Shown here: in pieces, positions 13,343 through 40,035 of the stretch | How the letters are laid out: each line of letters opens with the position of its first letter | How positions within the stretch are numbered: position 1 is the first letter of the stretch | NCBI GenBank assembly: GCA_964016885.1 | Contig: OZ024742.1 | Span: forward strand, 301,568,001-301,632,000 | DNA from: Eledone cirrhosa | Lineage: Eukaryota | DNA length: 64,000 bases | Direction of reading: 5' to 3' | The notes under the pieces: generated by a model | Told to the model about the DNA's origin: nothing | The model's database searches: none | The model's input: the letters and a program-made list of their open reading frames with translations, nothing else | Translations under genes and position numbers: made by a program

Positions 13343-13424
13343 GTATATATACATACATATATACATACATACATATATATATACATACATATATATATAC
13401 ATATATATACATACATATATATAC

Positions 13425-13456
<32 letters not shown>

Positions 13457-13469
13457 ATATATACATACA

Positions 13470-16199: not shown

Positions 16200-17160
16200 A
16201 GACAAGCCGAATTACCCACGCCTTGCTGCGTTCCACACATTTTTTTTGTAAGAAAATGATGATATAATTTAATATAATCAGTGATATAATTTATGGAGAA
16301 AAACTCTGCATTACAATATTACTCAATGTAAAATGTAATGCATGAAAAATTGGAAAACATTATTTTTTGTACTATATCAAATCAAAATTACATTATTAAA
16401 TCTTATCTTATTTTGTTTCTTGTAAATAATTTTTTTTTAAATATCAATTCAAAACTTGATCATTTCATTTTTGTGTAAAGCATTATTTTCAAATTAGAAA
16501 TTCAAAGTTTATTTATTTATTTTTTAACATAATAAATACATGAAAATATATTTCATACTTTGTCCTAATGAAGAACTTCAGGGTAAACAATATTTCTTGT
16601 CTTTCTTTGATTGGCTAAAATGTAGAGATTTTTTGAAGTTCCAGTCCTTGAAACAGCCACATAAAACATGCCATGACTGAAACATGGGTTTGTCAGATCT
16701 ATACCAATAGTTTTGAAAGTTTGACCTTGACTCTTATTGATGCTCATGGCAAAGCATGACCTCACTGGGAACTGCAGCCTCTTAAATATAAAAGACAACT
16801 CGCTATCACTTGGTATAAGTGGAATCCTTGGAATGAGAAGAGCTTGACCTTTGTAAGCCCCGAATATAATGGTTGCTTCAATCAAGTTCTCATGCAATCT
16901 TGTTACAACACATCTTGTTCCATTTATTGGCCAAAATTTTCACTATGGGGGGAGGTTTAACCCCCATTAGGGTGTTTTAATATTATTGAAATTTGCTGAA
17001 ATTTTGTGAATAGGAATCATATCTTGTCATTTACCTATGGTTTAAATTTCATATAAATCGAAGGGAAAACATTTTCAGCGCGGGTTTGTGACTCCAGGGA
17101 ATCCTTTAATTAAAATGAAATATACTTATCAAAGTACCCTCGGCAATGTAGTTTCAGAAT
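16200..17160 (-). mobile_element. Helitron 3' fragment (PIF1-type helicase C-terminus)
   Basis: ORF 16565-16897 IPRIPLIP...FKRLQFPVRSCFAMSINKSQGQT...CFSHGMFYVAVSR...TRNIVYPEVL. Hairpin plus CTTGT (CTAG-like) terminus near 16202. Confidence 0.88.
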
Positions 17161-19110
17161 ATGGAAATAGTTGCTGAGATGCTGAAGGCATCTGGTATGG
17201 TGGGACACACCATGGTCACCCAGATAGTTAACCAAGTCGTACAGAATGGGGTTGTTCCGAAGGACTGGCGTAGCAGCATCATCATTAACTGTTATAAGGG
17301 TAAAGGAGCTGCCCTAGATAGGAGTAACTATAGAGGCATTAAATTAATCGACCAGGTCATGAAGGTCACGGAAAAAGTAATAGCGCAACTAATCAGAGAG
17401 AGAATTGATCTAGATGAAATGCAGTTCGGGTTTGTGTCGGGCAAAAGTACCACAGACGCTTTTTTCATTGTACGACAACTACAGGAGAAGTACCTAGCTA
17501 AAAGTAAACCCCTATACTTAGCTTTTGTCGACTTGGAGAAAGCCTTCGACAGAGTCCCCCGTTCCATTATCTGGTGGGCTCTTAGAAAACTAGGTGTTGA
17601 CGAATGGCTTGTGAGAGCTATACAAGCCATGTATAAAGAAACAGTCAGCAAGGTTAGAATTAACAACGAATATAGTGAAGAGTTTAGCGTAAAAGTTGGC
17701 ATCCATCAGGGCTCTGTTCTCAGCCCCCTACTATTTATTATTGCCCTTCAGGCTATAACAGAGGAGTTCAAGACCGGCTGCCCATGGGAACTCCTATACG
17801 CAGATGACCTAACACTCATAGCTGAATCAATGGCCGAGCTAGAGAAGAAATTCCAAACATGGAAGCACGGCCTAGAATCAAAAGGCCTTAAAATTAACCT
17901 GGCTAAGACTAAAGTTCTAGTTTGTAAGAAAGAAAATAAGGCGGCGGTCCCTTCCGGGAAGTGGCCATGCTCAGTGTGTAGGAAAGGCGTAGGTAGAAAC
18001 TCCATTTTGTGTCCCAAATGTAAAGTATGGGTGCATAAAAGATGTAGTGGGATCACAGGTAAGCTAACTAAGAACATAGATTTTACATGTGGCCGGTGCT
18101 CTGGTGCAATAAGTAGCAGCAAGTGCCCACAAAATACTAGCTTTTTCAACTGCGCAGAGGGTTCTATAGAAATAGTGGGGGAGGGTGCTCTTAAAGTACA
18201 GTAGCTAGAGTCAGAACTGGATGGAAAAAGTTCAGAGAGCTTATACCACTATTAGCCGCTAAAGGGTTCTCCCTAAAAATGAAAGGCAGGTTGTATGATG
18301 CCTGCATACGAACAGCAATGTTGCATGGCAGTGAGACCTGGGCACTGTGTGCAGAGGATATACGCAGACTAGAGAGGAACGAAGCTTGCATGCTCCGCTG
18401 GATGTGTAATAGTAATATACGTGAACGGCAAAGCATAAACGAACTAAGGAAAAAATTAGAAATAAGAGGGATCAGATGTTGTTTACTCGAGAGAAGGCTA
18501 CGTTGGTATGGTCACGTGATGCGCATGAAAGACGATAGCTGTATAACAAAGTGCAGGGCAATAAAGATAGATGGTAGCCACGGAGTAGGCAGACCCAGAA
18601 AAACCTGGGACGAGCTGATAAATTCCGACTTCACACACTTACAACACTCCAAGACAATGTCACTGGACCGAGACCTTTGGCGGTACTCAGTAATAGAGAA
18701 GACCCGCCTTACCTAAATACAAAGTAAAACCTACTACAGTCAGTCGGCATCTCTAACAAAATACACCCCCGTCCCACCACCCCCACCCCATCCACACCGC
18801 CCCTTTCAATGTAAAGTTATGTTGGTACCACAACATCCAGGCCGAAACAAATGAGATTGTGTAGGTGTCACGACAAAAAAACACACAGTCCACGCTGTAA
18901 TGTGGCCGTGTAGGCAACACGGTAAAAACCTCCCAGACCCACACTGTAAATGTGGTTGGTGTTAGGAAGGGCATCCAACTGTAGAAAACCTGCCAGACAG
19001 TCCTATGCGAGCAAGACAACCACTCTTGCCTCAAGTGGGAATACCCCCGTCCAAACCCATGCAAGTGTGGAACACGGACGTTAAACGTTGATGATGATGA
19101 TGATGATGAT
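17161..19110 (+). mobile_element. RTE-clade LINE, 5'-truncated
   Basis: ORFs 17161-18204 (YADD) and 18279-18716, with an internal deletion at ~18180. 3'UTR and (GAT)n tail. Confidence 0.95.
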
Positions 19111-19209: not shown

Positions 19210-20273
19210 TATATACATACAAACATACATATATATATATATATGCATATATATATATATATATACATGCATACATATATATACATGCATACATATATAT
19301 ATATATATATCTATATATATATTTGAAAAAAAGGAAAAGAATTACTTCACTTGTAGTGTTAAATAATTTGATTTAATTTTATAATATTATAATATTATTA
19401 AATTAAATAAATTGCCATTCTGAGTTCAAATCCCGCCGAGGTTAACTTTGCCTTTCATCCTTACGGGGTCGATAAAATAAAGTACCAGTAATACACTGGG
19501 TAATTGCTGGCCTTGTGCCTAACGTAGAAACAATTATTAAATTAAATTAAATTATTTAACACTACAAGTGAAGTCATTCTTTTTTTTTTTCAAATATACC
19601 TAACTGTACCAAGGATCTCACACATGTTCCAATATATATATATATACATGCATATGTGAGTGTGTGTGTATGTATGTGTGTTTAAAATGAAAAATAAAAG
19701 GTTAACAACTTAAATCCATTCTTTAATTTCTACATACGTTCAATACAAGTGACAAAGGTACATGCATATATAAACAATACATTAATTGAAACAGTTAATT
19801 AGCAATTATTTACACAAGACATAATACATATAACATCTCCATTTCTTCATATATACATGTGTGTGTGTGTGTGTGTGTGTATACTGTATATATATATACT
19901 GTGTAACCAGTTGGTGAATTAAGCAATTTAATTGTCAGTTTTTAAATGAGATATTTGATGAATTGATCACTGTTAATCACATGTATGAATTGAATTAATT
20001 AACCAACTAATCAAATAGCTGTGAAATATTAAGAATGAATTAACCCTTTAGCTTAAATTACTCTATATTAGCTATTATGTTTTCATGGTAAAGGCTTTAC
20101 TTCACATAATTATCTCACATAATATTGAATCTATGAGAATTTGATATTATTTATGTTGAGAAAAATACATTAACATCAGTATGAGCAGCCGGTTACAACC
20201 GGTTTAAACAGAAAGACGTGAGAGAATTCTGCTCAGATACAGCTGGTTTAAATGCTAATTTGATAATTTGCTG

Positions 20274-20919
20274 TCAAACGAAAATTTCCCTATTTGTTGA
20301 ATGTTGTGAAAATGTTTCTTTTGCTAAATCAATCTGATAGATATTGTCTTCATTGTTCTGTGTTGTGTTTTCTTCACCAAAGAACTCACTGTCAGATATA
20401 TCAGAATAGAAGCCAATAGAATCAGTTCTAACGATGCTGGCGTCTTCTTGAAACTCTCTATTTTCTTCATTTGAAGTTGAAACATCAGGATAAACACAAA
20501 ATGCAACTTTCATATTCTGAAGGTAGCTTTCTCCTTCACTGTGGCAAACATGAAGTGCTTCTAAATAATCTTCACGCTGTTGTAGATCAAAGTCATTCAA
20601 AGCTATAGAAAACTGTACAGGGGAATCCAGTTTTAGTTCCATCAGTAGGGGGTCGGTGTCATTCAGTGTAGAAGCTAATACTGTGCTCTCTTTGATAATT
20701 CTTTTAGCCATAACAACTCCAACAAAAGAATCAAGTATTGGGGGTAGTTTTCCACATACCAAGTTCAATTGGAATGGAAAGTCTTCACGTTCAATTATGT
20801 TCTTCATTGTAATATATTTTTTACTGTCTGGGCCATCAAGTGGAAGGTCACAAAAGCCAGTGTTAGATGTAAATGGAATCAGGAGAATATCTTTACTTTC
20901 ACTGTAACACTTTAAAAAC
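20274..20919 (-). CDS. CABIT-domain protein, last coding exon
   Basis: Acceptor attatttctag|G at 20919. Phase 2 matches the previous exon (AG|G = Arg), then FLKCYSESKDILLIPF...FPFQLNLVCGKLP...TVLASTL...LMELKLDS, ending TGA at 20274. Confidence 0.85.
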
Positions 20920-21089
20920 CTAGAAATAATAAAACAAAAATATCAAATACATTCAGAAAAATAAACAGTGAGTATGTTTTATTATATATTTCTGAAAATA
21001 TTTTAACAATATGACCCTCCCCAAATATAATAAAATTAATTATTTTTAGATATGTTGGAATTCAATTTATCAGGGTTTCTATCTATAAT

Positions 21090-21799: not shown

Positions 21800-22064
21800 C
21801 TTGTTTTACTTTGATATTGTTTCAACTGCTTCAAGTGTTTCCCTTTCACAACACTGGAATTCATCACTTTCAACACTCTACCTGGTTCTACTGGCCGTTC
21901 TTCATAATTGTCTTCTCCACTGAGAATTGAACTCTCCGGCTGGTGTAGAGCCAATGTTTCTTGCATGGTGATCACAGCTCTGGCCCTCGCATCTGACACT
22001 GCCTGAGCATCTTGATAGTATGCTGGTGGGTAGTCTTCTTCTGATTCTGGGCAGTAGAACCATC
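21800..22064 (-). CDS. CABIT-domain protein, middle coding exon
   Basis: Acceptor tttcattcctag|GA, donor AG|gtaaat. 265 nt, phases 1/2 compatible with both neighbours. Reads GWFYCP...VEPGRVLKV. Confidence 0.85.
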
Positions 22065-23084
22065 CTAGGAATGAAATAAATGTGAAGCCTTTAATGGAAA
22101 GCATGTGGCTGTATATACACAATCTTGCCCATGAGCATGTGAGTGTCTGTATGTGTGTGGGGGAATAACTTTTTGAAGTATGAACTAGCTGATGGCCCAC
22201 ACAACAGTCCAGACACATGTGGACTTGCAACACTGCATATTTAATATTCATTTGCTGATGAAGTTGCACACCATACAGCTAAACTTAAAACTAGTCTCAA
22301 CTGTCTCGACTCACTGGGACACAGCTATCAAAACTACGTAGAGCAAATACTATGTTCTGTATAAAGAATTTGAAGTTTGATAGCCATGACAATGTGAAAT
22401 AGATGGATAAACTAGTTGGATGAAACAAGATGTTATGTGATTTTTACCTTAATTTGTTTATATGTCCTTTCATTAAGGTAAAAAACACATCTTGTTTCAT
22501 CCAACTTGTTATTTCGCATACTATTCTGAGTTCAAATCCCGCTGAGGTTAACTTTGCCTTTCATCCTTATGGGGTCGATAAAATAAAGTACCAGTAATGC
22601 ACTGGGTAATTGCTGGCCTTGTGCCAAAAGTAGGAACAATTATCGTGGCTTTCAAACTTCAAATTCTTTATACTATATACATTGCTTCAAGTAAACTACA
22701 AAATGTTCTGTATGTTTTCAGCCAGCAAAAATCTTGATCCCACATATTCAAGCCATACGCTAGCAGCTTTAAGTTCTTTCGTTTTTGCTGCCTCTTGTTT
22801 CAATTGCTTGTTTTCTCAGCAATTGTATGATACTCCACCAACACACACTACCAACTGCTGAAAGTATATAATTCAATAATTGGCAATTATTTGAATGTTA
22901 TGAATCCACAATTACTTTTCAAGCTCAATATAAATACAAACGCATGCTGACATCAAAACAAGTTGCAATGGATGCTTCAAACTACATGAACTAAAGTATC
23001 ATAAAGGCAGAATAATTTCAGTCCTTTCGTTCAATATCATTACAAAGTGAGGAATATGTCTGTGCATGTGTGTGTGTGTGTGTG

Positions 23085-23124
<40 letters not shown>

Positions 23125-23239
23125 GTTGTGTGTCTTTGTCTCTTTTGGTTAAATTAATCTTTGGAGATAAATATGATTTTGTAAGTGTATAAAATAGTGA
23201 ACAAGTGTGAGTATACATATACACAGACCCATATATGTG

Positions 23240-24710
23240 TGACTCAAAAGAAACTGGCTCTGCACACGTTTTGTATCATTGTATATTAATTTTTTAACCG
23301 ATCAACCTTAAATTTCTGAGAAGACAACAAAACCCTTAATGAGAGCTCCAGCATCAGATTTTCTCTGTGAAACACTACTATAAGTGTGGCTCATTCAAGC
23401 AAGTCCTGGAACAATTTCATGCTTTTTTGGAATCTTCAAAACTAATATACAAAATTGGGTGAAGAAGTTTGAAACCTATGGGATAGTAAAGAACCTTAAT
23501 ATAATGTCTACTGGACCATCCTATCAATTCTGGATGACCCAGGAAGCATACACAAGAAGTTATTGACATGGTCTGAGAATTTGTTGAACAGAGCCCAAAA
23601 CGATCACTGCGAAGGACATCCTTGTAGAAGGATTGTCAAAGAGGATCTTAAGAAGTACCCCTACAGAATATAGACTAAACAAAAGCTGACTGTAGTTGAT
23701 AAGACCAAGAAAATGGCTATGGCTGAGAAAATGCTACAGAAAATGGAAAACAAATTTTCTGAATCTGCTGTGGACTTTAATGGAAAAGATCAACTTTGAC
23801 ACCAAGAACAATGTGTTCTTGGTGTCAAACAAACCCACTGAAGTGGATATGAAACCTCTCTACTTGGCTAAATGTACCATATAGGCTGCTATTTCTGAGA
23901 GAATGTTGTTGACTCATTCTTCTTTAAAAAAATATAGTGTTATTACTTGTCACAAAGGAACACTATGTGGCAGTCCTGGAGGACTTCAAAAAGGATCTAC
24001 AGACCATGTACCCATCTCTAATGAATAAGTTCTGGTTCCAGCAACATGGAGCAAGCTTTGACACTTCGAATGAGTCACAAGAAAGGCTAAAAAATAACTT
24101 TGCAAATCGTGTGGTCAGTTTGAAGATTGATTTTGTAAATGTTTTAAGATTATTTGTAAATGTTTCCTATGATGAACTAGAATACATGTTTTCCTCCCTC
24201 TCTCTTACACATAGATAATTGTGTGTGTATACGAATACTCACATATATATGGGTGTGTGGTATGTACTGGGTGACTTTAAAAAAACTGGCTCCATTTTTA
24301 TTTTTGTCTACATTATTCATTTTTTGACAAAAACTGATGAAACTCAGAATATATTTAGTTCAAACCCTTAAACACAATATATAAAAACAGCCATGATTTA
24401 AGCCTCAGATTTCTTGTTTTAGAGCTATTTCAGGACCATCACTGAACTAAAGGAAAACATCAGGGAGATCAGAGTCATCCCTATGTCCGTTTGTAAAGAT
24501 GTTATGCTAAACTTCACCATGTGTCTTAAAAAATGCAAAGATTCAAATGGAGATCATTTGGAACATGTTCTGTAACTCTGGTCAGAAAAATCAAGAGACA
24601 GGGAATTTTTTATACATTGTGTTTAAGGGTTTCATTAGTTTTCGTAAAAAAATTAATAATGTAGACAAAAATAAAAATGGAGCCAGTTTTTTTTTTAGTT
24701 ACCCAGTACA
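23240..24710 (+). mobile_element. decayed Tc1/mariner-superfamily transposon
   Basis: Remnant peptides IQNWVKKFETYG.V, YPYRI.TKQKLT and FWFQQHGA. Right end ...TTTTTTAGTTACCCAG|TA at ~24709. Confidence 0.7.
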
Positions 24711-25859
24711 TACCACACACCCATATATGTGTGAGTATTCGTATACACACATAGCTATCTACATGTAGGAGAGAGAGAGAGAGAGAGGAAAACATGTATT
24801 CTAGTTCATCATAGGAAACATTTACAAATAATACAATGATTTAGCAATTTTACGCATGTCACAAATTCTTATTTTAAACATGAAAACTCTTTTATTTTAA
24901 AGAAGAACCCTGTCACGAACGTCCATGTCATTTACATAAAATCCTTTCATTATAGATGTGTTGTCCATCCTACTGGTTATTTAACTGCAGCAGGATTAGC
25001 AGATGACAACAATAACAACATTACGTTTACATGGATTTAAAATTGACACCATATCTATTTCCAATGCTGTACAAACTTAATGAAGTCGTGTTGATAAAAC
25101 ATGATAAAGTCGTCAGCCAGTTGATGGTGGTTGGATTTTGTTTGGTTTTGTTGTGTGTGTGTATTTGTATATTTATATGTGCATATGTATGTGTGTCAAT
25201 GTGTGTATATATATATATATATATGTGTATGTGTATGTTTGAGTATATATATATATATGTGTGTGTATGTGTGTTTGCTAGTCTTTAAACTGCTGGTGAT
25301 GTTTAACTAAGATATATAAAGACATTTCGTGACAGAAATAGATTCCTAAGATGAACAGATAGAGGTGCAGTCACGATTGTGTGATTAAGGAGTTCACTTC
25401 ACAACCAGTTGGTTCTGGGTTCAGTCCCACTTTATAGCACCTTAAGTAAGTGTTTTCTACTATAGCCTCAGGTTGACCAGTGCCTTATCAATGGAATTTG
25501 CTAGACAGAAACTACAGAAGTCCGCCATATATTTGTGTGTGTGTTGGCTAAAAGGTTCATAGGCTGACTATGAAGGAGTGATGCTAGAGTTATGAAATAT
25601 TTCATTCATTGATTTCAACTCTTATTAATAACTGCATTGTTTCTTTCCAGGGACTATGTTGAAAAATAAACCCCATTTAATCATTCCATGAGAGTATCTA
25701 GGTCTGCCTATAAACTTTTCAGCTGACCCTTGTAGCTACTGCTGCACATAAGATGCCATGGACCCACAAGACTAAATCCTCTTTAAACAGGGGGGTGGCC
25801 TTAAAACACTTATAGTGGTTGTGAAATACATAGCATCCGACTAGAGTCCTCTGTCGCCT

Positions 25860-26319: not shown

Positions 26320-26372
<53 letters not shown>

Positions 26373-26395: not shown

Positions 26396-26708
26396 CATCA
26401 TAATCCTCTGGGATTATTACGTCAGGTCCATTCTCTTTGTAGGTTTCCTCGGATTCATCAAACTCCATACATTTTGTCTCAAGTTTCTGGATATCACGAA
26501 AGTTATAGATCAATAGAGGTTGCTTTAGATCAAACTCAAAGTCCAGTTGATTGAGATAACATGATTGGGCAGCACACAACACTACCCTGGGTAAAGTAAA
26601 CTTAGAAACCAGGTCTTGTAAGGTATATGTCTGGGTACTCCAGCGGAATTCTTCCGACGAAGACAATATCGAGTTTGCTGTTTTTAAAACTTTCCTCAGA
26701 CGGTTCAT
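26396..26708 (-). CDS. CABIT-domain protein (GAREM/THEMIS-like), first coding exon
   Basis: MNRLRK...RWSTQTYTLQDLVSKFTLPRVV...QPLLIY...VIIPEDYD|G resembles the CABIT N-terminal W-S..Y.L..LV....LP.VV and IP..Y.G.F motifs. Donor G|gtaag at 26395. The spliced CDS is 1224 nt (407 aa) with no stops. Confidence 0.85.
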
Positions 26709-28988
26709 TGTAGTGGATATCTTCCTTGTCTATATATTGTAGTAGATATCTTCCTTGTCTATATCATTGTAGTGGATATCTCTATTATTTATATCATTGT
26801 AGTGAATTTTATTTTTATCTATATCATTGTAGTGGATATCTTCCTAGTTTATATCATTGTAGTGGATATCTTCCTAGTTTATATCATTGTAGTGGATATA
26901 TTCCTAGTTTATATCATTGTAGTGGATATCTTCCTTGTATATATCACTGTAGTAGATATCTTCTTTGTTTATATCACTGTAATGGATATCTTCCTTGTCT
27001 ATATCATTGTAGTGGATATCTTCCTAGTTTATATCATTGTAGTGGATATCTTCCTAGTTTATATCATTGTAGTGGATATATTCCTTGTATATATCACTGT
27101 AGTGGATATCTTCTTTGTTTATATCACTGTAGTGGATATCTTCCTTGTCTATATCATTGTAGTAGATACCTTCCTTGTCTATATCACTGTAGTGGATATC
27201 TTCCTAGTTTATATCACTGTAGTGAATATCTTCTTTGTTTATATCACTGTAGTGGATATCTTCCTTGTCTATATCATTGTAGTAGATACCTTCCTTGTCT
27301 ATATCATTGTAGTGGATATCTTCCTTGTCTATATCATTGTAGTGGATATATTCCTTGTATATATCACTGCAGTGGATATCTTCCTAGCCTATATCATTGT
27401 AGTAGATACCTTCCTTGTTTATATCATTGTAGTGGATACCTTCCTTGTCTATATCATTGTAGTGGATATCTTCCTTGTATATATCACTGTAGTAGATATC
27501 TTCCTTGTCTATATCATTGTAGTGGATATCTTCCTAGCCTATATCATTGTAGTGGATATCTTCCTAGTTTATATCATTGTAGTGGATATATTCCTAGTTT
27601 ATATCATTGTAGTGGATATCTTCCTTGTATATATCACTGTAGTAGATATCTTCTTTGTTTATATCACTGTAATGGATATCTTCCTTGTCTATATCATTGT
27701 AGTGGATATCTTCCTAGTTTATATCATTGTAGTGGATATCTTCCTAGTTTATATCATTGTAGTGGATATATTCCTTGTATATATCACTGTAGTGGATATC
27801 TTCTTTGTTTATATCACTGTAGTGGATATCTTCCTTGTCTATATCATTGTAGTAGATACCTTCCTTGTCTATATCACTGTAGTGGATATCTTCCTAGTTT
27901 ATATCACTGTAGTGAATATCTTCTTTGTTTATATCACTGTAGTGGATATCTTCCTTGTCTATATCATTGTAGTAGATACCTTCCTTGTCTATATCACTGT
28001 AGTGGATATCTTCCTAGTTTATATCACTGTAGTGAATATCTTCCTTGTCTATATCATTGTAGTAGATATCTTCCTTGTCTATATCATTGTAGTAGATACC
28101 TTCCTTGTCTATATCATTGTAGTGGATATCTTCCTTGTCTATATCATTGTAGTGGATATATTCCTTGTATATATCACTGTAGTGGATATCTTCCTAGCCT
28201 ATATCATTGTAGTAGATACCTTCCTTGTTTATATCATTGTAGTGGATACCTTCCTTGTCTATATCATTGTAGTGGATATCTTCCTTGTATATATCACTGT
28301 AGTAGATATCTTCCTTGTCTATATCATTGTAGTGGATATCTTCCTAGCCTATATCATTGTAGTAGATACCTTCCTTGTTTATATCATTGTAGTAGATACC
28401 TTCCTTGTTTATATCACTGTAATGAATACCTTCCTTGTCTATATCATTGTAGTGGATATCTTCCTAGTCTATATCATTGTAGTGGATATATTCCTTGTAT
28501 ATATCACTGTAGTGGATATATTCCTTGTATATATCACTGTAGTGGATATATTCCTTGTATTTATCACTGTAGTGGATATCTTCCTAGCCTATATCATTGT
28601 AGTAGATACCTTCCTTGTCTATATCGTTGTAGTAGATACCTTCCTTGTTTATATCATTGTAGTAGATACCTTCCTTGTTTATATCACTGTAATGGATATC
28701 TTCCTAGTCTATATCATTGTAGTGGATATCTTCCTAGTCTATATCATTGTAGTGGATATCTTCCTTGTATATATCACTGTAGTAGATATCTTCTTTGTCT
28801 ATATCATTGTAGTGGATATCTTCCTAGTCTATATCATTGTAGTGGATATCTTCCTAGTTTATATCATTGTAGTGGATATCTTCCTTGTATATATCATTGT
28901 AGTGGATATCTTCCTTGTATATATCACTGCAGTAGATATCTTCTTTGTCTATATCATTGTAGTGGATATCTTCCTAGTCTATATCATT
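26704..28988. repeat. 30-bp minisatellite, ~76 copies (ATATCATTGTAGTGGATATCTTCCTTGTCT)
   Basis: Seen directly. The variant pattern recurs at a 690-bp (23-unit) offset, e.g. 26881 vs 27571. Confidence 0.98.
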
Positions 28989-29065
28989 CATTCCATTGTC
29001 TACAATGAACATCAGTATATAAATAAATATTTCATGGAGGCTGTGTGTGGTACACCATCTGTTGT

Positions 29066-29090
29066 CTGATAAAATAAAATGAGAAACTTA
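29066..29090 (-). promoter_or_regulatory. probable splice acceptor for the exon holding the array and the CABIT start codon
   Basis: Minus strand tttctcattttattttatcag|acaac: a polypyrimidine tract plus CAG just upstream of the array. Confidence 0.55.
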
Positions 29091-29999
29091 GATTTGAATA
29101 AACGCCATAAAAATTATGATTTGAAAATAAAACATTGATCTCTATCTAAAAATTAATATTGGATTTTATATATCATTTAACATTCATACTCCATACTCCC
29201 TGCTAGCATGGGTGGGATGGGTTGGTACTTAATCAAAGCTACTGATGTCTCAGATAGGCAAGGAGGTGGGAGAGGCTGCATCACATTTCCATACATTACC
29301 TCTCTCTCTCTCTCTCTCTCTCTCCCTACATATATTTGAACTGCTTAGAGAATACATGAAAAACGTTTTTTTTAATATTTAATATGAAATATTTGATTAG
29401 ATTGATATACCAATCAAGACCGGTTATGTTTAATGTAACAATTATAAAATTATTCATTCTGTTGGAATAAAGAAAACTAATCTTCTGTGCAGTTTAACCT
29501 TCACTTTTTAACTATAACCTCTGTTTTCTATAGAACTTTCCCCCCTTTTCAACTCTCTCTCTCTCTGCAAGCAGGGAAAAGTTGACATAAAATGATGATG
29601 ATGATGATGATGATGATGATATGCAAAAGGCAAATAGAAATAACAAACCAAACAACACATACAATGAAGAAATATATTATTAATTTTACGCTTGATATAG
29701 TAGGAAAAGAGTGTGTATATATATAAGTCTGCCATCTTGTGATAGCGACTTAAAAGTTGAGAGGAGGGACACATAATTAGAAGCAAAATTATGGACCAAC
29801 AAAACGTAATTACAAACACAACTTGCAACAACGAATTTAGCAACACCACCAACAACAACAATGAAACGAATGAGGAAAATGGCAGCAACAACAACTCCAA
29901 GAGCAACAACGTAATTAAAAACAATAACTGCACCAAGAACAACAATGACGACAAACCAACAACTCTAGACTGATGTTAAATGGTTGACGTGAAGGTTCT

Positions 30000-32900
30000 A
30001 TACAAGACGTATAAACTGCACACCAATTTTGGTGCTTAACGGTTCAAGTTGATTCAACTACTCATCCAAAGAGGTTTATTGCTGCTGTTTTTCCCCCTGA
30101 TTTTGGATTGTTCTACGCATTTGTGGATTATACTCTCTTTTTCTTCAACTCCAACCGTCAACGTGTGTACATTTTCTAAGCACAATAATGCCTGCAACTA
30201 CAAGAGCTCGCTCGGCTGTCCAAACTTCTCATAATGTTATGCCACCGACCTATAATTGTAATTGCAAGCGGTTGAAACTGAACCTTACCCAAATCGAACT
30301 GAAAAACGCACACTTTCAAACTCAACTTGATGCCCTCATGTCACAGATGTTGATAATGGAAGAAACGATATTATCACTTCAACCTCCTAATGATGCGACT
30401 TCCAGACCGTCTAAATCTACATCTTCCCAGACAAAGACGATCAAAGCAAAACCGAAGCACCAAAAGAAGCAAAGCAAGAAGATAGCAGATGCTGCACAAA
30501 ACAACACCAAGCAAAACACATTGGTCTCGTCTACTCATCAAATTCCTGCAGGTGCATCTACCACGATGAATGATGCAGGTTTAATCTCTGATGAAGGCAC
30601 TGTAAATTCCTCTGCCGGGGTTTGGCGGTCATCCAAAAGACGACACCGCCGCTCCGGCATGGTTGATGATCGAAACAAACCTTATCTCCCTATCAGCCCA
30701 GCAGACAATTTTGTTACGGCAAATACAAGTCTGCTTGATGATGAAGCGGATCGGGTCAACTCAGTAAACGGTTTGCCATTATGTTACAGGTAAATGTGGT
30801 ACCCCCAAGACAGCTGCCAGCGCTGAAGAACAACAGTGTAATAAATCTGTCTATGTCTACGGAGTTTCCGAAAGCTGTGCAAACACTGAAAAGGAGAGGT
30901 ACCACCAAGACTTTGAGTTTATCTCAAACATTATCAAAGTCACTATTGGCGATTCAGATGGCAAGACGTAAGTCTGAGCCGTGAGAATTGGCCGGAAATC
31001 TGAAGAACGAAATCCTAATTCAAGACCCCGACCCATCAAAGTCAAATTCTCTACTTCTCAGCAAGCAGAGGACTTCCTTGCCAAAGCCAGAAAGTGTTAC
31101 CGGGGTAGTAAATTGGATTTTCGGAAGGAGTTCTCCTTAAAAGAAAGAATCCGCTGGAGAACTTTGAAGACAGAACTCATAGTCACGCATAGCTGCCGGA
31201 GAGACTGGTCTGCGGATAAGAAATGGAAAGATAGTACACTCTTACCTTTGGGCGGCCCCAATAACGATATCCAAAGACTCCAAACTTCCCTGGCAGAACA
31301 AACAGCCATCTCAGATGAGAAGGTGTGCAAGAAGCCCTCCAACTTCCTCCCGAAGATCCCCAAAAAGCGATTAAAGCCCAAATCGCCGTCCCTTGATTAC
31401 TCATTCAAAGTTATTTTAACCAACGCTTGCTCTCTTCTGTCCAAACTTGATGATCTCCATTCCGTTATTGCAGACGAGAAGGCAGACCTCATAGTCATAA
31501 CCTAAACCTGGTTAAATTCAAAAGTCAAGGATGCAGAGATTCACATTCCTGACTTTACTACATTCCGATGTGATAGATCTCAAAGAAAAGGTGGAGGAGT
31601 TATCGTTTATGTAAGATCATCACTCAAACCATCCCGTCAGCCTCTACCACCGAACACCGTACTTTCGGAGAACTTTGATGCTGTTCTTTGCAATCTTAAT
31701 GTGGGTGGAGAAACTATTCCCGTTCTTTCCATCTATCGCAATCCTGGTTCTACAACAGATGAAGATCAGAGTCTCATTAATGCAATGAAAGCTGTCTCAA
31801 GATGTCCAAATGACTGTCTTATACTCGGGGATTTTAATGCCCCGACTATAGACTGTAACTCAAATGTGTGCACGTCCAATAATAACTTTGACCAATTATT
31901 GCTCGATAGGACGGAAGAATGTTTCATCTGCCAGCATGTTACAAAACCGACAAGAGCTCGAAGTGGTCAACGACCATCGTTACTAGACCTTATCTTCTCC
32001 TGCTATCCTAGATCCGTATCGTCTCTGCAAGTTCTGTCTCCACTTGGGAAAAATGATCATGCAGTACTGAGCTTTAGCATGCATACTTCGCTTGCACTGC
32101 CTCCTGTTTCGAATCAGCTGAGAAGAATATTTGCTGCTATCAATCATGATCTTATCAAAATGGCCTCCAACGAGATAAATTGGCGCAGCCTAACTGAAAA
32201 TCAGTCTGTTGAAACTTTGTGGTGAGAAATAAAGGAAATTCTACTTGGGCTAACAGAAATGGCAGTGTTGCTGAGAACGCCAAAACGCAAGAAACACAAA
32301 CCCTGGATAACAAAGACAATTATCCGCGAACGGAAGTTAAGAAACGCTGCTTGGGAGCACTATCAAGAGACCATGTCTGTGACGCCATTTGAAGTCTACA
32401 GAAAGCAGCGAAATCATGTCGAGCATATTTCCAGAATTGGAAGGCAAAATTTTGAAAGGGAACTTGCAAATGATGCCGGTCGTAATCCAAAGCGCTTTTA
32501 TGCTCACGTGCAAAGAAATCAAAAACTGAATAACCAAATTGTCACTCTCCGAAACCCCGAAGGTGCAGTTATTGAACACGCTGACAAACAAGCTTCTCTT
32601 TTTGCCGATGTTTTCGCAAATATCTTCAAGGAGGACGATGGCAGAGAACCTCCAAATCTAAATCTAAACATGATCTCCCCACCAAAGCAGCCAACCACAG
32701 TCAGACCGGACGAGGTAGAAAAGTTGCTTTTGTCCTTAGATGTGAATAAGGAGCATGGTCCAGACGGTCTATATCCAGCGATTTTGGGTGCAGTTGCACC
32801 CAACCTTGCTAAACCTCTAGCCACACTATTCAACCTGTCATTGGCTACCGGAGTTGTTCCTGCCGACTGGAAAGTAGCTATAATTTGCCCTATCTTTAAA

Positions 32901-34260
32901 AAAGGCGACAAAGAAGATCCGGGGAACTACAGACCCGTGAGCCTCACCTCAATCACCTGTAAAGCCTTGGAATCTCTAATCAAGCCGGCAATTATGGCTC
33001 ATCTTGCGTCTTTCACTGCAATTTCTCCATCTCAACACAGTTTCATCCCGAAACATTCCTGTCTCACAAACCTACTCGTGATGGAAGAATGGGTGACGAG
33101 GATAGTGTACGATGGAGATGCGGCTGATATTATCTTTCTCGACTTCGCAAAAGCCTTTGACTCCGTCAACCACCGCCTGCTCCTGTATAAGCTCAGCAAC
33201 TACGGTCTCCATCACTCGATTATAAAGTGGATTGGGTCATTTCTGGAGAGTCGTACTTGCAGAGTTAGGATCAATGGCAGTCTGTCATCGGGGGTAGGTG
33301 TAGGCAGCAGCGTTCCCCAGGGCTCTGTGTTAGGCCCAATTCCCTTCCTTCTATACATCAACGACATGCCGGACGTGATTGGTGGAAATGTGCTTCTATT
33401 TTCAGATGATGTGAAAATGGTAGCCTGTAGGAGCGAGATCGACAATCTCAAGTCCTGCCTCCAGCGCGCCTGGAGTTGGTCCATTGACTGGGATTTATAC
33501 CTCAATGTCGAAAAGTGTTGCCATATGGCAGTGGGTACACCTTATAACTCAGCTCTTACCTTCAATGGTGGCATTGCTCCTTTGAAGGAGGTTGAGGAGA
33601 CTAAAGATCTTGGTCTGATGGTTGACTCGTCCTTCAAACCATCAAAACATTGCATTCAAGCCGCAAACAAGGCAAGGAGCTCTCTTTTTCTTATTTGACG
33701 CTCCTTTGCCAAACTTACTCCAGAAATTTTCAGGCCTCTCTATGTCGCCTTCGTGAGACCGCACCTAGAATATGGCATCCAAGCATCAAACCCATATCTC
33801 ATCCGGGATATCCATCACTTGGAGAGAGTTCAACGATTAGCGACTCGAATGGTACAGGGTCTTCATGAGCTGCCCTACGAAAGCTGGCTGCAGAAGCTGA
33901 ACCTCTTCTCCTTGGAGCGTCGACGGCTACGAAGCGATCTCATTTTGGCTTACAATCTCTTCAATTCACTCCGGCACTTGAAAGGGGTCTACGTGGACAT
34001 GACAAAAAGCTGTTTCACCGCCACTTTCGCCTAAATAGACGGAAAGCTGCTTTCTCGATCTGCATCTCTGGACCCTGGAATCGGCTTCCAGAAGAAGTAG
34101 TCAATGCGTCAACCACGCAACAATTCAAGGCGAAATTGGACCTGTGTTGGACCACTGTGTTTCAGACTGTGTAAATGTTGCCCCCTGCCCTCCTTACATG
34201 GCATCTGAAGCATCTATGTTTTAATTTCTGCCAATTATATTGAATTGAATTGAATTGAAT
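30000..34260 (+). mobile_element. near full-length CR1/L2-group LINE (ORF1 + APE + RT), inactivated
   Basis: ORF1-like RIG...RPRPIKVKF; APE TNACSL..K...LIVIT*TWL...ILGDFN...LDL; RT NYRPVSLTS, LDFAKAFD, VPQGSVLGP, LFSDD; (ATTGA)n tail at 34238-34260. Several stops. Confidence 0.92.
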
Positions 34261-34330
34261 ATACAGGATATCTATAGATAAAAAGCAAAGGAAAAGAATG
34301 CTCAATCTAGTACAAGAGAGCTTATTTAGT

Positions 34331-34513
34331 TTATATTAAAGTTCATACACCTAACATGTATGCACAACCTAAGGTTTCAGGGTCCAGTTTTGGCTACCAC
34401 TGTATAGTAGAGTAGCAGATCTAAAACTAGTCTCTTTTGCCAGGCACAAGGACAAATTGGACCTCAAAACCTAAGGTCATGCATACATGTTAGGTGTATG
34501 AACTTTAACATAA
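34331..34513. mobile_element. MITE-like element with ~60-bp terminal inverted repeats
   Basis: TTAAAGTTCATACACCTAACATGTATGCA... and ...TGCATACATGTTAGGTGTATGAACTTTAA. Confidence 0.65.
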
Positions 34514-34532
34514 ATTATATATATATAGATAG

Positions 34533-34869
34533 TAGGCACATGGCTTAGTGGTTAGAGTATTGGCCTTGCAATCGAAAGGTTGTGAGTTCAATTCTCAGAC
34601 CGGATGATGTGTTGTTTCCTTGAGCAAGACACTTTATTTCACATTGCTCCAGTTTACTCAACTGTAGAAATGAGATGATAGGGATTGGGTTCCCTATCAT
34701 TCCACTGCAAAGTGGACGTGTAGGTGCCACGGCAAAAAAGCACCCAGCACTCACTATAAATGAGTTTGGTGTTAGGAATGGCATCCAGCTGTAGAAATCA
34801 AGCCAAAATCAGTTCCCATCCTACCCTTGCAAGCAGGGAAAAGCGGACGTAAAATGAAATGATGAATGA

Positions 34870-34872
<3 letters not shown>
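34533..34872 (+). mobile_element. CORE-type SINE copy
   Basis: Matches 9153-9543. Confidence 0.88.
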
Positions 34873-34919
<47 letters not shown>

Positions 34920-35194
34920 TGTAAAGTAGTTGTGTAGATGTCACAACAAAAAGTACCCAGCCCACACAGTAAGTGGTCATGTAGGAGTCACGACAAAAAG
35001 CACCCAGTACACACTGTAAATGTGGTTAGCATTAGGAAGGACATCCAATCATAGAAACCTAACCAGAAACAGTTCTATATGAGCAAGATACGATCACCTG
35101 ACCCAACCTGCCTCTAATGGGACAGTCCATTTAACCCATGCTAGTGTGGAAAGTGGACGTTAAACGATGATGACGATGATGATATATATATATC

Positions 35195-36010
35195 ATCATT
35201 ATCATGATCATCATTTTACGTCCGCTTTTCCCTGCTTGCAAGGGTTGGATGGGTCCTATTCAGCACAGCATCTCTCCATTTGTCACGGTCCTTCGTCATC
35301 TCCTCGGTGAGTTTCAGCGATCTGAGGTCTGCTCTCACCACCTCTGCCCATGTTTTTCGTGGTCTACCTTTACTGCGTCTTCCCTCCACTGGGACTTCCT
35401 GGCACTTCACATGTCCATACCATCTCAGCCTTCTCTCCTGCACACCACAACTTATCCCTCTTACACCCAGTTTCTTTCTCAACTCGTCTATGCTTGGTCG
35501 TTCACGCACATTGACATTGCACATCCAACGGAGCATACTTGCTTCATTTCTCTCCAGCCGTCGCATATATATATATGAATGAACTTCTGGCTGATTTAAG
35601 AAACATTTGGGAAATTTAAAATGTAATTGTCCCAACATGGATGACAATAATAATAGTCAATCACTATAAATAGTAGTTGAAAAAATCAGATCAATTACCT
35701 CTGGAGATAGAAAAAAGTGAACTGTGTCAATGAGCTGAGAAAGAATGAGCATAAGAGGTATAAGGGGCATCAGGTGCAGTGTGCAGGAGAGTGTGATGGT
35801 ATGGACATGTGATGTAAATGGAAGATGGCAGCTGCATAAATAACTGCAGGGCACTTGAAGTTGAAGAAACCTGTGGAAGAGGGGTAACCTAGGAAAAATT
35901 GCGATGATGTGTTAATGGCTGACCTCATGCAGTTGAACCTCAAAAAGGAGATGACACAGAATAGAGTTGACAGGTAACATGCTATACTGCAGGAGACCCA
36001 CCTTCCCACA
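35195..36010. mobile_element. two RTE 3' fragments in opposite orientation
   Basis: 35216-35565 (-) reads RRLERNEASMLRWMC...TLASREKRT. 35720-36005 (+) is a degenerate equivalent. Confidence 0.8.
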
Positions 36011-37629
36011 GGGGCTGTATGAAACAAGCATAGGGAGGATAGTAAATGAAGAGGCAGAGATGTTTCTATCTACCCTGTCACTTCCTCCACCCTGTTTGTT
36101 TTCCTCTATCTTAATCCCCTCCTCACTATCTCATTCACCTACACCTTAACCTCGCCCACATTATTCCTCCACCACTCGCATCTTTCATTCCCTCTTCCTC
36201 ATCCAGCTCATGCCAACATAGTCCCCCATAGCTTAGACTTTCCCCACAATAGCCCCCTCCCACTCACATTATCGTCTATCCACCCTCAGCCCCTTATCCC
36301 CAATTCCCCCTCACCCAGGCCAGCATGGAAAGCTGGACATGCCCCATGATATAATGTCAGGTGTCCCTCACTCTTTTCAAAACCAGCCCCATGACCTGGT
36401 GCTAGCAGTTCCACTGTGGGATGACCCAAACCCACCCCTCAGCAAAGAATATGTAGCTATTCTGCCACCCAAATCTCATTTTATACCCTTTCACTCGCAT
36501 CCCTGCCTTCCCAGCCTGGTCGAGGACACAACTAGCACCCTAATGTTGTAATAGGGTAATGCAGGAGCCACAATAAAATGCACCCAGCTTACACTATAAA
36601 GTGGTAGTGCTGGTATCATCATAAAAAGCCCCTAGTCCACTCTGTAAGGTGGTAGGGCTGATACCATCATAAAATGTTCCCAGTACATGCTATAAAGGGG
36701 TTGACATTAGAAAGGGCATCCAACCATAGAAACCAAGCTAAAAATAGAATATATGAGGAAGATATAGTCACCTGACTGGTTTAGCCTCAGAACTCATGGA
36801 AGCATGGAAAATACACATTAAACAGTAATGATGATGATGATGATGATATAAATATATATATGCACATATATAATAGGTTCTTCATTGTAATACGCCTTCT
36901 GATTTGTTGGCAGTTGTTGGATTAATCGAATGATTGTGAAACCAGGTCATATGACAAAGTGTGTGACATGAATGACAGATTAACAATTGCATTAGTAAAT
37001 GTTGTTCTTACATAAGTATAAAAACCTTACTACATTGATAGACTAACTGAAACAACATTTTCTGACATATTTCTTTTCCAATAGTTAGTTACATTGATGT
37101 AAATATCTAGCAACTCATTAAACTAACTAAAAATAGTAGCCAAATTTACCTCAAATCACACACCATCTTAACCCTATTTATTTTAAACTACCTGGAACTA
37201 TTTTTCATTCTATGATGCAAAAATGCTTCAAAATGTTTCTGTTTATTTAAAAACCACTAATCTTAATTTTATGTAAGAACCTTTGTTAGGTTTAGCAGTT
37301 TTAAATATGTACACTGTATCTGAATGTGTCATAAGAGACAACTAAAAGAGTTGCCACCAAGAAGGGTAAAGGAGCTCATGATCTCATGACCTCATAAGAG
37401 TACGCTTGCATGGGTTAGATGGGTTGTCACATTCTGAGATTGAAAAGGCAGGTCAGATGACCAAGTCTTACTACTGTGTTCCATTTTGACATGGTTTCTA
37501 TGGTTGGATACCCTTCCTAATACCAACCACTTCACAGCATACACTGGGTACATTTTATCATAACACCACCACTTTGGTGTTAATCGTCAGCCTACCACTA
37601 TGGTGCTTCATAATTATTCTCTTAACCAC

Positions 37630-37752
37630 TTCAGTGCCATAGATAAGATAACTCATCCTAACATGTATGCATTTCAGTGCCATGGATAAGATAACTCATC
37701 CTAACATGTATGCATTCCAGTGCCACAGACAAGATAACTCGTCCTAACATGT
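37630..37752. repeat. ~43-bp tandem repeat x3
   Basis: CAGTGCCATAGATAAGATAACTCATCCTAACATGTATGCAT. Confidence 0.85.
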
Positions 37753-37999
37753 TTGAACGCTTTTCCAACATTTCATAATTTCAAAGTTATGAAATCATTT
37801 CCAACAGTTCATAACTTCAAAGCTAGATGGGGTTACTAGTTTATTGATGTGACGTTTGTCAATCATTCAGATATGTGTTGTTAATAAATGCTTGTTTAAA
37901 AAAATAGTTATTTTACTGAAAATAAAACCCTGCACAGCAACTGTAGCTATGTAAAATATATGCAGCAGTTAACAGGTTAAAACAGACCTGTAGCTGGGA

Positions 38000-39190
38000 A
38001 AGTGACATAGACTGCCTCTACCTAAAATATCAGCAAAGATGCTGAGACTTAACATCAATCCAAACATTGTTAGAATGTTGCATCATATTCTTTCAGCAAT
38101 AGCTACTAACCTCCAAGTGTAGAAGGTTATCCATGGAACAAGTCTGAATACATGGGACAGATAACATCATGAGCTTCTTGAGAAATACTCATTGAATGAT
38201 GACCTCAAACTCACAGCACTACTACATCAAATCAGTGGATGAAATAATGTGTGCTTATCAACAAAAATCATGCATGGCTATATTGCCAAAAATCTTCAAA
38301 ATGAGAGTAATATAGATATCCAAAGTAGTCTATGTTGGACCAACAACTGGTATATTTAACTCTCACTTTGAAGGATATGCTTTTGCAATCCAGGAACAGG
38401 AAATAACAAGGAAATACCTGATGCACAAAAGAGATATGGATGCAGGCAAAACACCTAGATGCAACAACAGATACAGACGCTGTGGGATATTACCCATATT
38501 GTAAGCAGATATTAACTATCTATAAGGAAGGATATAGTGGCCAAAACACTATACAATGCAATCTGTAGAAGGGATAGCCTTCAGAATAAAACTATTTAAA
38601 GTTACAGTGATGTGGAGGACATGTGCTCTCGTAATATGAGAGTGTATTGGTGAAATGTTCCCCAACAAAGTGTAAACATAACAGACCAAATATAATTTAT
38701 GGGACAGAAAAAAGAAGCTATGCACAGCTGTGGAAGTCAGCAGCCCAACAGATGTTAATATAGTGTTAAAGATTAGTGAATAGGAGAATATTTATGCCAA
38801 ACTAATGAGAAACCTGCAAATACTCCACCCTGACTATACCTTTAGATTGGTACCTGTTATCATTAGGACACTTGAGTATGTTACCAACTGCCTCAAAACA
38901 AATCTTGAGAAGCAGGGCCTCACAGAACTGGAAAGAACATGGCTAGTTAGGAAGTTGCAAGTAGTCTGCCAATGGAACTGTACAAATATGTAAAACATTT
39001 CAACAATTCAACATGTAATAACTGCATATAGATATAGAAACATATGTATATATGCACATAAAACTAATAACATACAGATCCACTCATATAATAACACTCA
39101 TACATGTACACACACACAAACAACATATAGTGATACATACATTTTCCTAGTTGATATCTAAATTCCAATGAAAGAGTTTTGGGCACTACA
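38000..39190 (+). mobile_element. old R4/NeSL-like non-LTR element 3' part (restriction-like endonuclease type)
   Basis: Remnant peptides EGYAFAIQEQEITRKYL, THIVS, KHNRP.I...D.KKK....VEVS.P.D.NI and LVPVII..L. Heavily decayed. Confidence 0.6.
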
Positions 39191-39299
39191 ACGCTATAAG
39201 CTGTCAGTCGAAAGCAGCAGATGAAAGCAAAACATCGTTTATTTCCGTATTACTACCACGCGTAAGTGGAGTTACTTGGTGGTAGTAATACGGAAATAA

Positions 39300-39460
39300 A
39301 CGATGACGAATGACGTCACCTTCGGCTGCTTTCACGACTGACAGCTATATATCACGTGAACACAATCACATTATTCTTTCAAAAGGAAAAGTTTGGCGCC
39401 ATTTTTCTCGAGGGAATAGCAAATGCCAACAAGCGCAGGAGAAAAGAAAAAGCAGTAAGT
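39300..39460 (+). promoter_or_regulatory. possible promoter/first exon (CRE, E-box, YY1-like motif, ATG, donor)
   Basis: CpG-enriched unique DNA with TGACGTCA, TCACGTGA and TTTGGCGCCATTTT. ATG at 39423 reads MPTSAGEKKK, then CA|GTAAGT at 39455. No confident downstream exon. Confidence 0.35.
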
Positions 39461-39984
39461 AATATCAAATAATTATTAAAAACGTTACAGGAGTCGCATT
39501 ATAATTAAGTTTCATACATACATATATATATGTGTGTATGTATGTATATATGTTATTCTACTGTAAATTTATTTATATGCTTTGTATATATTATATATAC
39601 ACAAATAATTGTTTCTACTTTAGGCACAAGGCCAGCAAATTACCCAGTGCATTACTGGTACTTTATTTTATCGACCCCGTAAGGATGAAAGGCAAAGTCT
39701 ACCTCGGCGGGATTTGAACTCAGCCGAGGTAGACTTTGCCTTTCATCCTTACGGGGTCGATAAAATAAAGTACCAGTAATGCACTGGGTAATTTGCTGGC
39801 CTTGTGCCTAAAGTAGAAACAATTATTTGTGTATATATAATATATACAAAGCATATAAATAAATTTACAGTATATACACAAATATATATACACAAATAAT
39901 GAATCTGTATATTAAAACATCGTTTGTATTATTCAATCAGTTTATTGAACAACTAGAATGCTCATGGTCAAGTACTTTATACAC

Positions 39985-40035
<51 letters not shown>

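What the first reader, a model, noticed from the sequence alone, without database searches (positions are those of the whole stretch)
26704..29065. Start-codon context amplified ~76 times: a uORF minisatellite in the CABIT gene leader
Seen: on the gene strand the unit is ACAAGGAAGATATCCACTACA-ATG-ATA-TAG/TAA. The real ATG (26708) is the ATG of the final unit. Most upstream units are Met-Ile-stop mini-uORFs with the same upstream context, and a variant class has GTG instead. The unit next to the true start has lost its ATG by a 1-bp deletion. A good acceptor at 29066 would put the whole 2.3 kb inside the exon. AATGA microhomology at both ends explains its origin by slippage. Established: uORFs reduce downstream initiation. 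Inference: a copy-number-tunable translational rheostat, or a repeat-expansion silenced allele.
Basis: partly seen in the sequence, partly recalled or inferred. Interest (0 to 1): 0.75.

Follow-up and report, generated by a model that had tools for sequence, protein, structure and literature searches.

The report
Satellite repeat array abutting a start codon
A 2.3-kb array of 76 thirty-base repeats lies directly against the conserved start codon of an expressed octopod CABIT-domain gene; it is likely an ordinary young satellite-family repeat whose 47 tiny decoy reading frames would at most dampen translation, not an evolved regulator.

Summary
Window 26705-28988 is a 30-bp x 76.2 minisatellite: 47 of the 75 full units begin with ATG, 27 with GTG and 1 with ACG, and 46 of the 47 ATGs read Met-Ile-stop. 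The 76th unit lacks the G of its ATG. The array ends on the ATG at 26708, which is the true start: 3 of 3 homologs begin MNRLRK.

New here: run X4 holds a spliced mRNA contig. It runs 26 nt into the last unit and stops where DNA contigs stop at a repeated 31-mer. Array contigs sum to about 12x exon depth in X4, against 26-30x single-copy depth in DNA runs. So the array-bearing allele is expressed and the array is transcribed. The transcript start and how much of the array the mRNA holds remain unknown.

The "amplified start-codon context" origin is not supported. The unit is a diverged dimer of a 16-bp satellite spanning about 186 kb on another contig, and related 28-31-bp arrays lie at four more loci. 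The rheostat idea is untested. I read this as a young gene-proximal VNTR with an unusual position. Two earlier notes of this scan describe repeats at start codons in other genomes.

The parts
26705..28988 (-). Minisatellite: 75 units of 30 bp plus a last unit of 29 bp, then ATGA shared with the gene. There are 29 unit types among the 75 full units, and a 23-unit block is duplicated with 1 mismatch.
   Evidence: 27000-27299 = 27690-27989 at 100%
26706..26708 (-). True start codon of the CABIT-family gene. It lies at the array/gene junction.
   Evidence: 3 of 3 homologs begin MNRLRK at this Met; in-frame TAG at 26732-26730
26709..26737 (-). Last unit, 29 bp, with its ATG lost by deletion of the G. 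Positions 26709-26734 are covered by the spliced RNA contig.
   Evidence: X4 record 26: 26734-26395
26396..26708 (-). Coding exon 1 (residues 1-104); GT donor at 26395-26394.
   Evidence: tblastn; RNA joint 22063|26395 (cut +1), ends GT..AG on the gene strand
21800..22064 (-). Coding exon 2 (bounds within 1-2 nt).
   Evidence: tblastn; RNA joints
20171..20919 (-). Last exon: coding down to the stop at 20276-20274, then at least 103 nt of 3' UTR covered by the RNA contig (upper bound within 1-2 nt).
   Evidence: (ORF 20274..20942)
28988..28992 (-). Distal AATGA, a direct repeat of the AATGA at 26709-26705 that holds the start codon.
   Evidence: read
28989..29327 (-). Single-copy distal flank. 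It holds the acceptor-like tract ending in AG at 29067-29066 and a TATA-like word near 29170. No decayed repeat units were detected.
29328..29554 (.). Interspersed SINE-like repeat of about 230 bp. It is not joined to the array.
   Evidence: 2081 first-look candidates, 40 scored, 74-82% identity

Best explanation
A 2.28-kb minisatellite of 76 thirty-base units, whose unit is a diverged dimer of a 16-base satellite found elsewhere in this octopod genome, lies flush against the conserved start codon of an expressed CABIT-domain gene. It likely arrived or grew at a 5-base AATGA match. Array RNA is present and is probably, at least in part, the mRNA leader. It would act, if at all, as a drag on translation and not as an evolved regulator. 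Shown: the array and its census; that the ATG is the real start; that the mRNA is colinear with the last unit; that array RNA is present well above intron level; that the unit belongs to a dispersed satellite family; and that a 23-unit block duplicated with 1 mismatch marks recent growth. Inferred: that the array RNA is the leader of this mRNA; that scanning ribosomes would meet up to 47 Met-Ile-stop frames in the same -3A/+4A context as the true AUG and would have to reinitiate or skip them; that this lowers protein output; and that array length varies among individuals.
For: Array and census. True start. Orthologs pass the Pfam CABIT threshold (46.2, 46.7 and 38.6 bits against a cutoff of 24). 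RNA: X4 record 26 (1353 nt, depth 47.7) joins 26734-26395, 22063-21800 and 20918-20171, and these joints are absent from X1-X3. It ends at 26734, exactly where the contigs of X1, X2 and X3 end. One search shows why: the 31-mer at 26705-26735 recurs at two inner array sites, so X4 must also hold inner-array sequence. In X4 several intron bins (22079-22309, 22772-23002, 23234-23926, 24851-25312) read 0, and three 151-letter intron contigs have depth 2. Array contigs sum to about 583, or 12.2x exon depth, against 26.1-30.5x single-copy depth in the three DNA runs. All 41 genome matches of a 25-nt unit word lie in this array, so the RNA comes from this locus. Family: the 30-mer consensus aligns with two 16-mers at 24 of 30 positions, and 0 of 1000 shuffles reach that score. 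The unit matches itself at 18 of 30 positions at shift 15 (17 of 2000 shuffles reach this). Related arrays of 28, 30, 31 and 31 bp lie on C2, C26, C8 and C1; 0 of 300 shuffles reach the observed score for each. Youth: the unit strings GHBLFGCDM..DNIJDOCAAPQBRA and GHBLFaCDMDNIJDOCAAPQBRA differ by a 4-unit gap and 1 base.
Against: No run is on record as RNA. That X4 is RNA is my inference from the spliced contig. Contig depths are summed and flat, and the tool warns that they are a poor measure, so the figure of about 40-45% relative array cover is rough. Contigs carry no strand and no position within the array, so the array RNA could be antisense or a separate transcript. No X4 contig on the single-copy distal flank is listed, and no joint or loose end at 29066; the tables are cut, so this decides nothing. 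No orthologous DNA was available, so the origin is inferred from within one genome. Nothing tests translation. The only indel in the array removes the uATG nearest the start, which would fit selection against decoy starts and hence some functional weight. But the units at this array edge are decayed anyway.
Confidence: 0.5

Rival explanations
1. Promoter-side repeat: the array is upstream DNA, transcription starts in its last units, and the mature mRNA holds almost none of it. The array RNA seen comes from antisense, read-through or unprocessed transcripts.
For: The RNA contig proves only 26 nt of leader. The bin upstream of the array (29242-29613) has a low X4 figure of 8.43, and bins 29986-32217 read 0. 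GTG-type units carry TATATA-like words every 30 bp, so starts inside the array are conceivable.
Against: Array RNA per copy is about 40-45% of exon level, whereas several intron bins of the same gene read 0 and the intron contigs listed have depth 2. The contig breaks at the k-mer branch and not at a free end.
Confidence: 0.25
2. One reading: the gene's own start-codon context was amplified by slippage between AATGA repeats, and the uORF ladder serves as a copy-number-tunable translational rheostat.
For: 47 uATGs share the context of the real ATG. AATGA stands at both ends. The uATG nearest the start is deleted. The last unit is in the mRNA and the array is transcribed.
Against: The ATGATATAGACAA core and the 15-16-nt half-unit belong to a satellite family found on other contigs. 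GTG-type units score higher than the ATG consensus against 5 of 6 relatives. There is one genome only, with no data on conservation, polymorphism or translation.
Confidence: 0.1
3. The array is a coding repeat on the plus strand (HCSGYLPCLY or IVVDIFLVYI, about 76 times each).
For: Two plus-strand frames stay open across the whole array, at 764 and 793 aa.
Against: Only 9 of 90 possible single changes to the consensus would close either frame, so 21 observed variant states missing them has a probability of about 0.1 (the probability is my estimate). Neither frame has a Pfam match. The frames begin inside exon 1 of the opposite-strand gene.
Confidence: 0.01
4. Assembly artefact: the array is much shorter in the real genome.
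For: Long tandem arrays can be mis-sized, and only contigs, not raw long reads, could be laid.
Against: Three DNA runs give array contigs summing to 26-30x single-copy depth. The many variant units and the higher-order blocks are not what a collapse or stutter produces.
Confidence: 0.03

Closest known systems
Hypervariable minisatellites / VNTRs with interspersed variant repeats (recalled from general knowledge, not from a call)
   Same: The unit is 10-100 bp and repeated head to tail. There are many variant units in higher-order blocks, the edges are sharp, and there are signs of recent internal duplication.
   Different: Length polymorphism, the defining VNTR property, could not be tested. 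The array stands flush against a start codon, and most units hold a start codon and a stop.
Gene-proximal regulatory VNTRs such as the insulin 5' VNTR, the 30-bp MAOA upstream VNTR and the CSTB promoter dodecamer (recalled; an INS paper appeared only in the listing and was not read)
   Same: A tandem array lies just upstream of a coding region, where copy number could change expression.
   Different: As I recall, those act on transcription from hundreds of bases upstream. This array touches the ATG, and at least its last unit is in the mRNA.
Multi-uORF leaders that work by reinitiation (yeast GCN4, mammalian ATF4) and minimal AUG-stop uORFs (recalled)
   Same: Very short upstream frames precede the main AUG, and the last uORF stop lies 50 nt before the main AUG.
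   Different: Those have 2-4 conserved uORFs with tuned spacing. This array has 47 repeat-borne copies in a young array, with no evidence of conservation or of ribosome use.
The 16-bp satellite of this genome (contig C1, matches spread over about 186 kb) and its 28-31-bp relatives
   Same: They share the ATGATATAGACAA core, and two 16-mers align with 24 of 30 positions of the unit. Both are AT-rich.
   Different: The period is different, and this exact 30-mer occurs nowhere else in the assembly. No flanks are shared.
Earlier notes of this scan on start-region repeats in other genomes (e1-552532, e1-2171631)
   Same: Those are tandem repeats that reiterate or abut a start-codon region. The follow-ups judged them young or ordinary.
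   Different: They come from different organisms and have far fewer copies (about 6-7). I did not check them.

Membership tests
Minisatellite / VNTR | Head-to-tail array of units 10-100 bp long | tested here: met
   30 bp x 76.2 copies, 89% matches
Minisatellite / VNTR | Variant repeats interspersed along the array | tested here: met
   29 unit types among 75 full units, arranged in higher-order blocks
Minisatellite / VNTR | Copy number varies among individuals | not testable with these tools
   Only short-word contigs of 4 runs from one study were available, and they collapse the array
uORF-controlled mRNA leader | The upstream AUGs lie in the mature mRNA | tested here: inconclusive
   The RNA contig covers 26 nt upstream of the ATG, and that stretch holds no AUG. 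Array RNA is present, but its strand and its link to this mRNA are unknown
uORF-controlled mRNA leader | The uORFs are conserved in orthologs | not testable with these tools
   Only ortholog proteins were reachable, not their DNA
uORF-controlled mRNA leader | Ribosomes initiate at the uORFs and main-ORF output depends on them | not testable with these tools
   No ribosome profiling or reporter data
CABIT-domain protein (Pfam PF12736) | The protein matches the CABIT profile above the curated cutoff | tested here: met
   The orthologs score 46.2, 46.7 and 38.6 bits against a cutoff of 24. The window's three exons align with them end to end at 50-82% identity. The exon peptides scanned one by one give no CABIT match, so membership rests on orthology.
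Dispersed 15-16-bp-core satellite family of this genome | The unit shares the family core beyond chance | tested here: met
   0 of 1000 shuffles reach the observed score against the 16-mer. 0 of 300 shuffles do so for each of the 5 consensus units of the four 28-31-bp arrays, and 1 of 300 for the 16-mer against the GTG unit.
Transposon-borne internal tandem array (MITE or Helitron type) | Flanking element sequence is shared between copies | tested here: not met
   BLAST of 11 flanks found no similarity next to the arrays. The distal flank 28989-29327 is single copy.

The most novel reading that the evidence does not exclude
An expressed animal mRNA carries a natural ladder of up to 47 identical-context two-codon uORFs in a 2.3-kb leader. 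The gene is still translated only because ribosomes reinitiate or shunt through the ladder, so array length sets protein output. Loss of the uATG nearest the start would be a compensating change.
Probability: 0.1. Interest if true: 0.7.

Novelty: new member of a known kind. Interest (0 to 1): 0.35.

Why it matters
If the array sits in the mature leader, this gene would be a natural test of how a scanning ribosome copes with dozens of minimal uORFs in a row. It would also show whether minisatellite length can set protein output. As things stand it is a well-documented case of a satellite-family array standing flush against a conserved start codon of a gene that is still transcribed and correctly spliced. 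That is useful for annotation: the ATG at 26708 is right, and the two long plus-strand frames are not genes. It also bears on how satellites seed new arrays at microhomologies.

Tried and rejected
- RNA holders: the look-up of sequencing runs listed no run on record as RNA.
- Distal flank and candidate acceptor at 29066: one search lists no X4 contig, joint or loose end there, but its tables are cut (71236 pieces, 233 joints and 1221 loose ends are not shown). The transcript start is therefore undecided. My back-calculation of distal-flank RNA depth from mixed bins was too loose to use.
Position-specific RNA cover inside the array is unknown.
- Transposon carrier: no shared flanks.
- Decayed units beyond the array edges: none. 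202, 131 and 300 of 500 shuffles reach the observed scores for the three flanks tested.
- Paralog comparison of leaders: the genome has only one distant paralog of exon 1, at 38% identity, so it is of no use.
- Plus-strand coding repeat: rejected.
- Earlier notes on this genome: none exist.
- Literature: the listing (15 of 167 papers shown; 3 of 3 shown) contained no title or abstract start describing a minisatellite made of uORFs. One search found 0 papers holding both CABIT and cephalopod. I read no paper in full.
- The search of protein representatives: the queue was full, so I dropped it.

Full report
**What is there.** TRF reports a single array at 26705-28988 with period 30, 76.2 copies, 89% matches and score 3371. 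On the minus strand the array cuts into 75 in-phase 30-nt units from 28987, followed by a last unit of 29 nt.
- Of the 75 full units, 47 begin with ATG, 27 with GTG and 1 with ACG.
- Of the 47 ATGs, 46 read ATG-ATA-TAG or ATG-ATA-TAA. One runs into the next unit as a 12-codon frame.
- The last unit reads ATATATAG. This is the only indel in the array, and it removes the G of the ATG.
- There are 29 unit types. A 23-unit block occurs twice with one base difference and a 4-unit gap. Positions 27000-27299 equal 27690-27989 at 100% identity. The array has therefore grown recently.

**The gene.** The exon after the array has three homologs:
- Argonauta hians, 405 aa, 81% identity;
- Octopus sinensis LOC115214103, 404 aa, 79% identity;
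- an unnamed protein of 421 aa, 67% identity.

All three begin MNRLRK, aligned with the ATG at 26708. An in-frame TAG lies 8 codons upstream. tblastn places three coding exons at 26708-26394, 22065-21799 and 20924-20277, covering the homologs end to end. The homologs pass Pfam's CABIT cutoff. The window's exon peptides scanned singly do not match CABIT, so "CABIT gene" rests on orthology. The best hits make the genome an octopod. It has 3.0 Gb, and the window lies on contig C3.

**RNA.** No run is on record as RNA. Run X4 nevertheless holds a 1353-nt contig of depth 47.7 that joins 26734-26395, 22063-21800 and 20918-20171. The first joint, across intron 1, has GT..AG ends on the gene strand. 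Runs X1-X3 lack both joints. I therefore take X4 to be RNA.
- The contig ends at 26734, the same base where the contigs of X1, X2 and X3 end.
- explains this. The 31-mer at 26705-26735 occurs three times in the window: once at the gene junction and twice deep inside the array, by my placing after the units at 27337 and 28147.
- An mRNA holding only the last unit would have assembled further upstream. X4 therefore holds inner-array sequence too.
- A splice onto an acceptor at or below 26734 is excluded for the assembled form, because the record starts at 26734 with no loose letters.
- In X4, several intron bins read 0 and three 151-letter intron contigs have depth 2. Array contigs sum to about 583, or 12.2x exon depth. 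In the DNA runs the array sums to 26.1-30.5x single-copy depth.
- All 41 genome matches of a 25-nt unit word lie in this array, so this RNA comes from this locus.

Per copy, the array is thus at roughly 40-45% of exon level, well above those intron bins. This figure is rough, because contig depths are flat and summed. The strand, the position within the array and the link to this mRNA are unknown.

The second lay, on 28870-40000, lists no X4 contig, joint or loose end on the single-copy distal flank or at 29066. Its tables are cut, so the transcript start stays open.

**Origin.** The unit is not peculiar to this gene.
- Genome search found related arrays on C8, C2, C26 and at two places on C1.
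- Their units are 31, 28, 30, 31 and 16 bp long.
- The 16-bp satellite gives matches over about 186 kb of C1. The three stretches I sampled, 19 kb in all, are mostly made of it.
- Two 16-mers align with 24 of 30 positions of the unit consensus, including an exact ATGATATAGACAA. None of 1000 shuffles reach that score.
- The unit matches itself at 18 of 30 positions at shift 15; 17 of 2000 shuffles reach this.
- Against 5 of the 6 related units, the GTG-type unit scores higher than the ATG consensus.

The Met-Ile-stop word is therefore a family feature, not a copy of this gene's start context.

No transposon carrier is visible. The flanks share nothing adjacent to the arrays, 28989-29327 is single copy, and the flanks hold no decayed units.

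The 5-nt AATGA at both ends is real. By my estimate from base composition, it would arise by chance about once in 500. It fits insertion or seeding at a microhomology in an ancestral ...GGAATGAACCG..., and it fits slippage equally well. Only an ortholog's DNA can decide between them.

**How it likely works.** My best reading, at 0.5 confidence, is a young gene-proximal minisatellite of satellite-family origin. It is at least partly transcribed into the leader.
- If ribosomes scan through it, they would meet up to 47 two-codon frames in the same -3A/+4A context as the real AUG. Translation would then depend on repeated reinitiation or skipping.
- The last uORF stop lies 50 nt before the main AUG.
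- All of this is inference from the textbook scanning model.
- The main rival, at 0.25, puts the transcript start in the last units.
- "Silenced allele" is contradicted at the RNA level.

**Other readings.** Two plus-strand frames stay open across the array. Only 9 of 90 possible changes to the consensus would close them, and neither has a Pfam match, so this is a chance effect.

**Comparison with what is known.** The array meets the structural tests of a minisatellite. Polymorphism is untested. It resembles gene-proximal VNTRs and multi-uORF leaders (both recalled from memory), but no defining feature of uORF control could be tested. Two notes of this scan describe start-region repeats in other genomes; I did not check them. 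The paper listings showed nothing on a uORF minisatellite, and I read no paper in full.

**Verdict.** This is a new member of a known kind, with interest 0.35.

Noticed in passing
window 26709-26737: The only indel in the whole array deletes the G of the uATG nearest the real start. As a result the last uORF stop lies 50 nt before the main AUG. This could reflect selection against the most harmful decoy start, or simply decay at the array edge (the neighbouring units at 26827 and 26797 are also degenerate).
   Followed up: partly
window 26688-29069 and 26714-29008, + strand: Two frames of 793 and 764 aa stay open across the array, giving decapeptide repeats IVVDIFLVYI and HCSGYLPCLY. The unit's composition explains this. 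Neither frame has a Pfam match.
   Followed up: yes
G000 C1:439373460-439559318 (sampled as L015, L016, L017): A 16-bp satellite (ATATAGACAACAGATG) gives matches over about 186 kb near the end of a 443-Mb contig. It shares its core with the 30-bp unit. Only 19 kb of it was read.
   Followed up: partly
window 26320-26372: A perfect (TAG)17.7 microsatellite (CTA on the gene strand) lies about 25 nt into intron 1. The DNA contigs break there.
   Followed up: no
window 30101-34034 (+), 47601-49463 (-), 11600-14115, 17152-18204: Retrotransposon reading frames. Pfam finds RVT_1, with a PHD finger in two cases, in the frames at 11600-14115 and 17152-18204. The frames at 30101-34034 and 47601-49463 look like LINE ORFs by eye only. 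One of them begins 1.1 kb upstream of the array.
   Followed up: partly
window 53517-55813 and 62030-63295: Large degenerate CTAACA-type arrays with strong strand skew. Composition skew rises from about 50 kb onward.
   Followed up: no
window 29328-29554: A SINE-like repeat of about 230 bp, with 2081 first-look candidates in the genome at 74-82% identity (40 scored).
   Followed up: partly
L011 1-424 (G000 C8:20341500-20341923): A 47-bp unit repeated 9 times at 100% identity lies about 1.3 kb from the 31-bp relative of the array.
   Followed up: no
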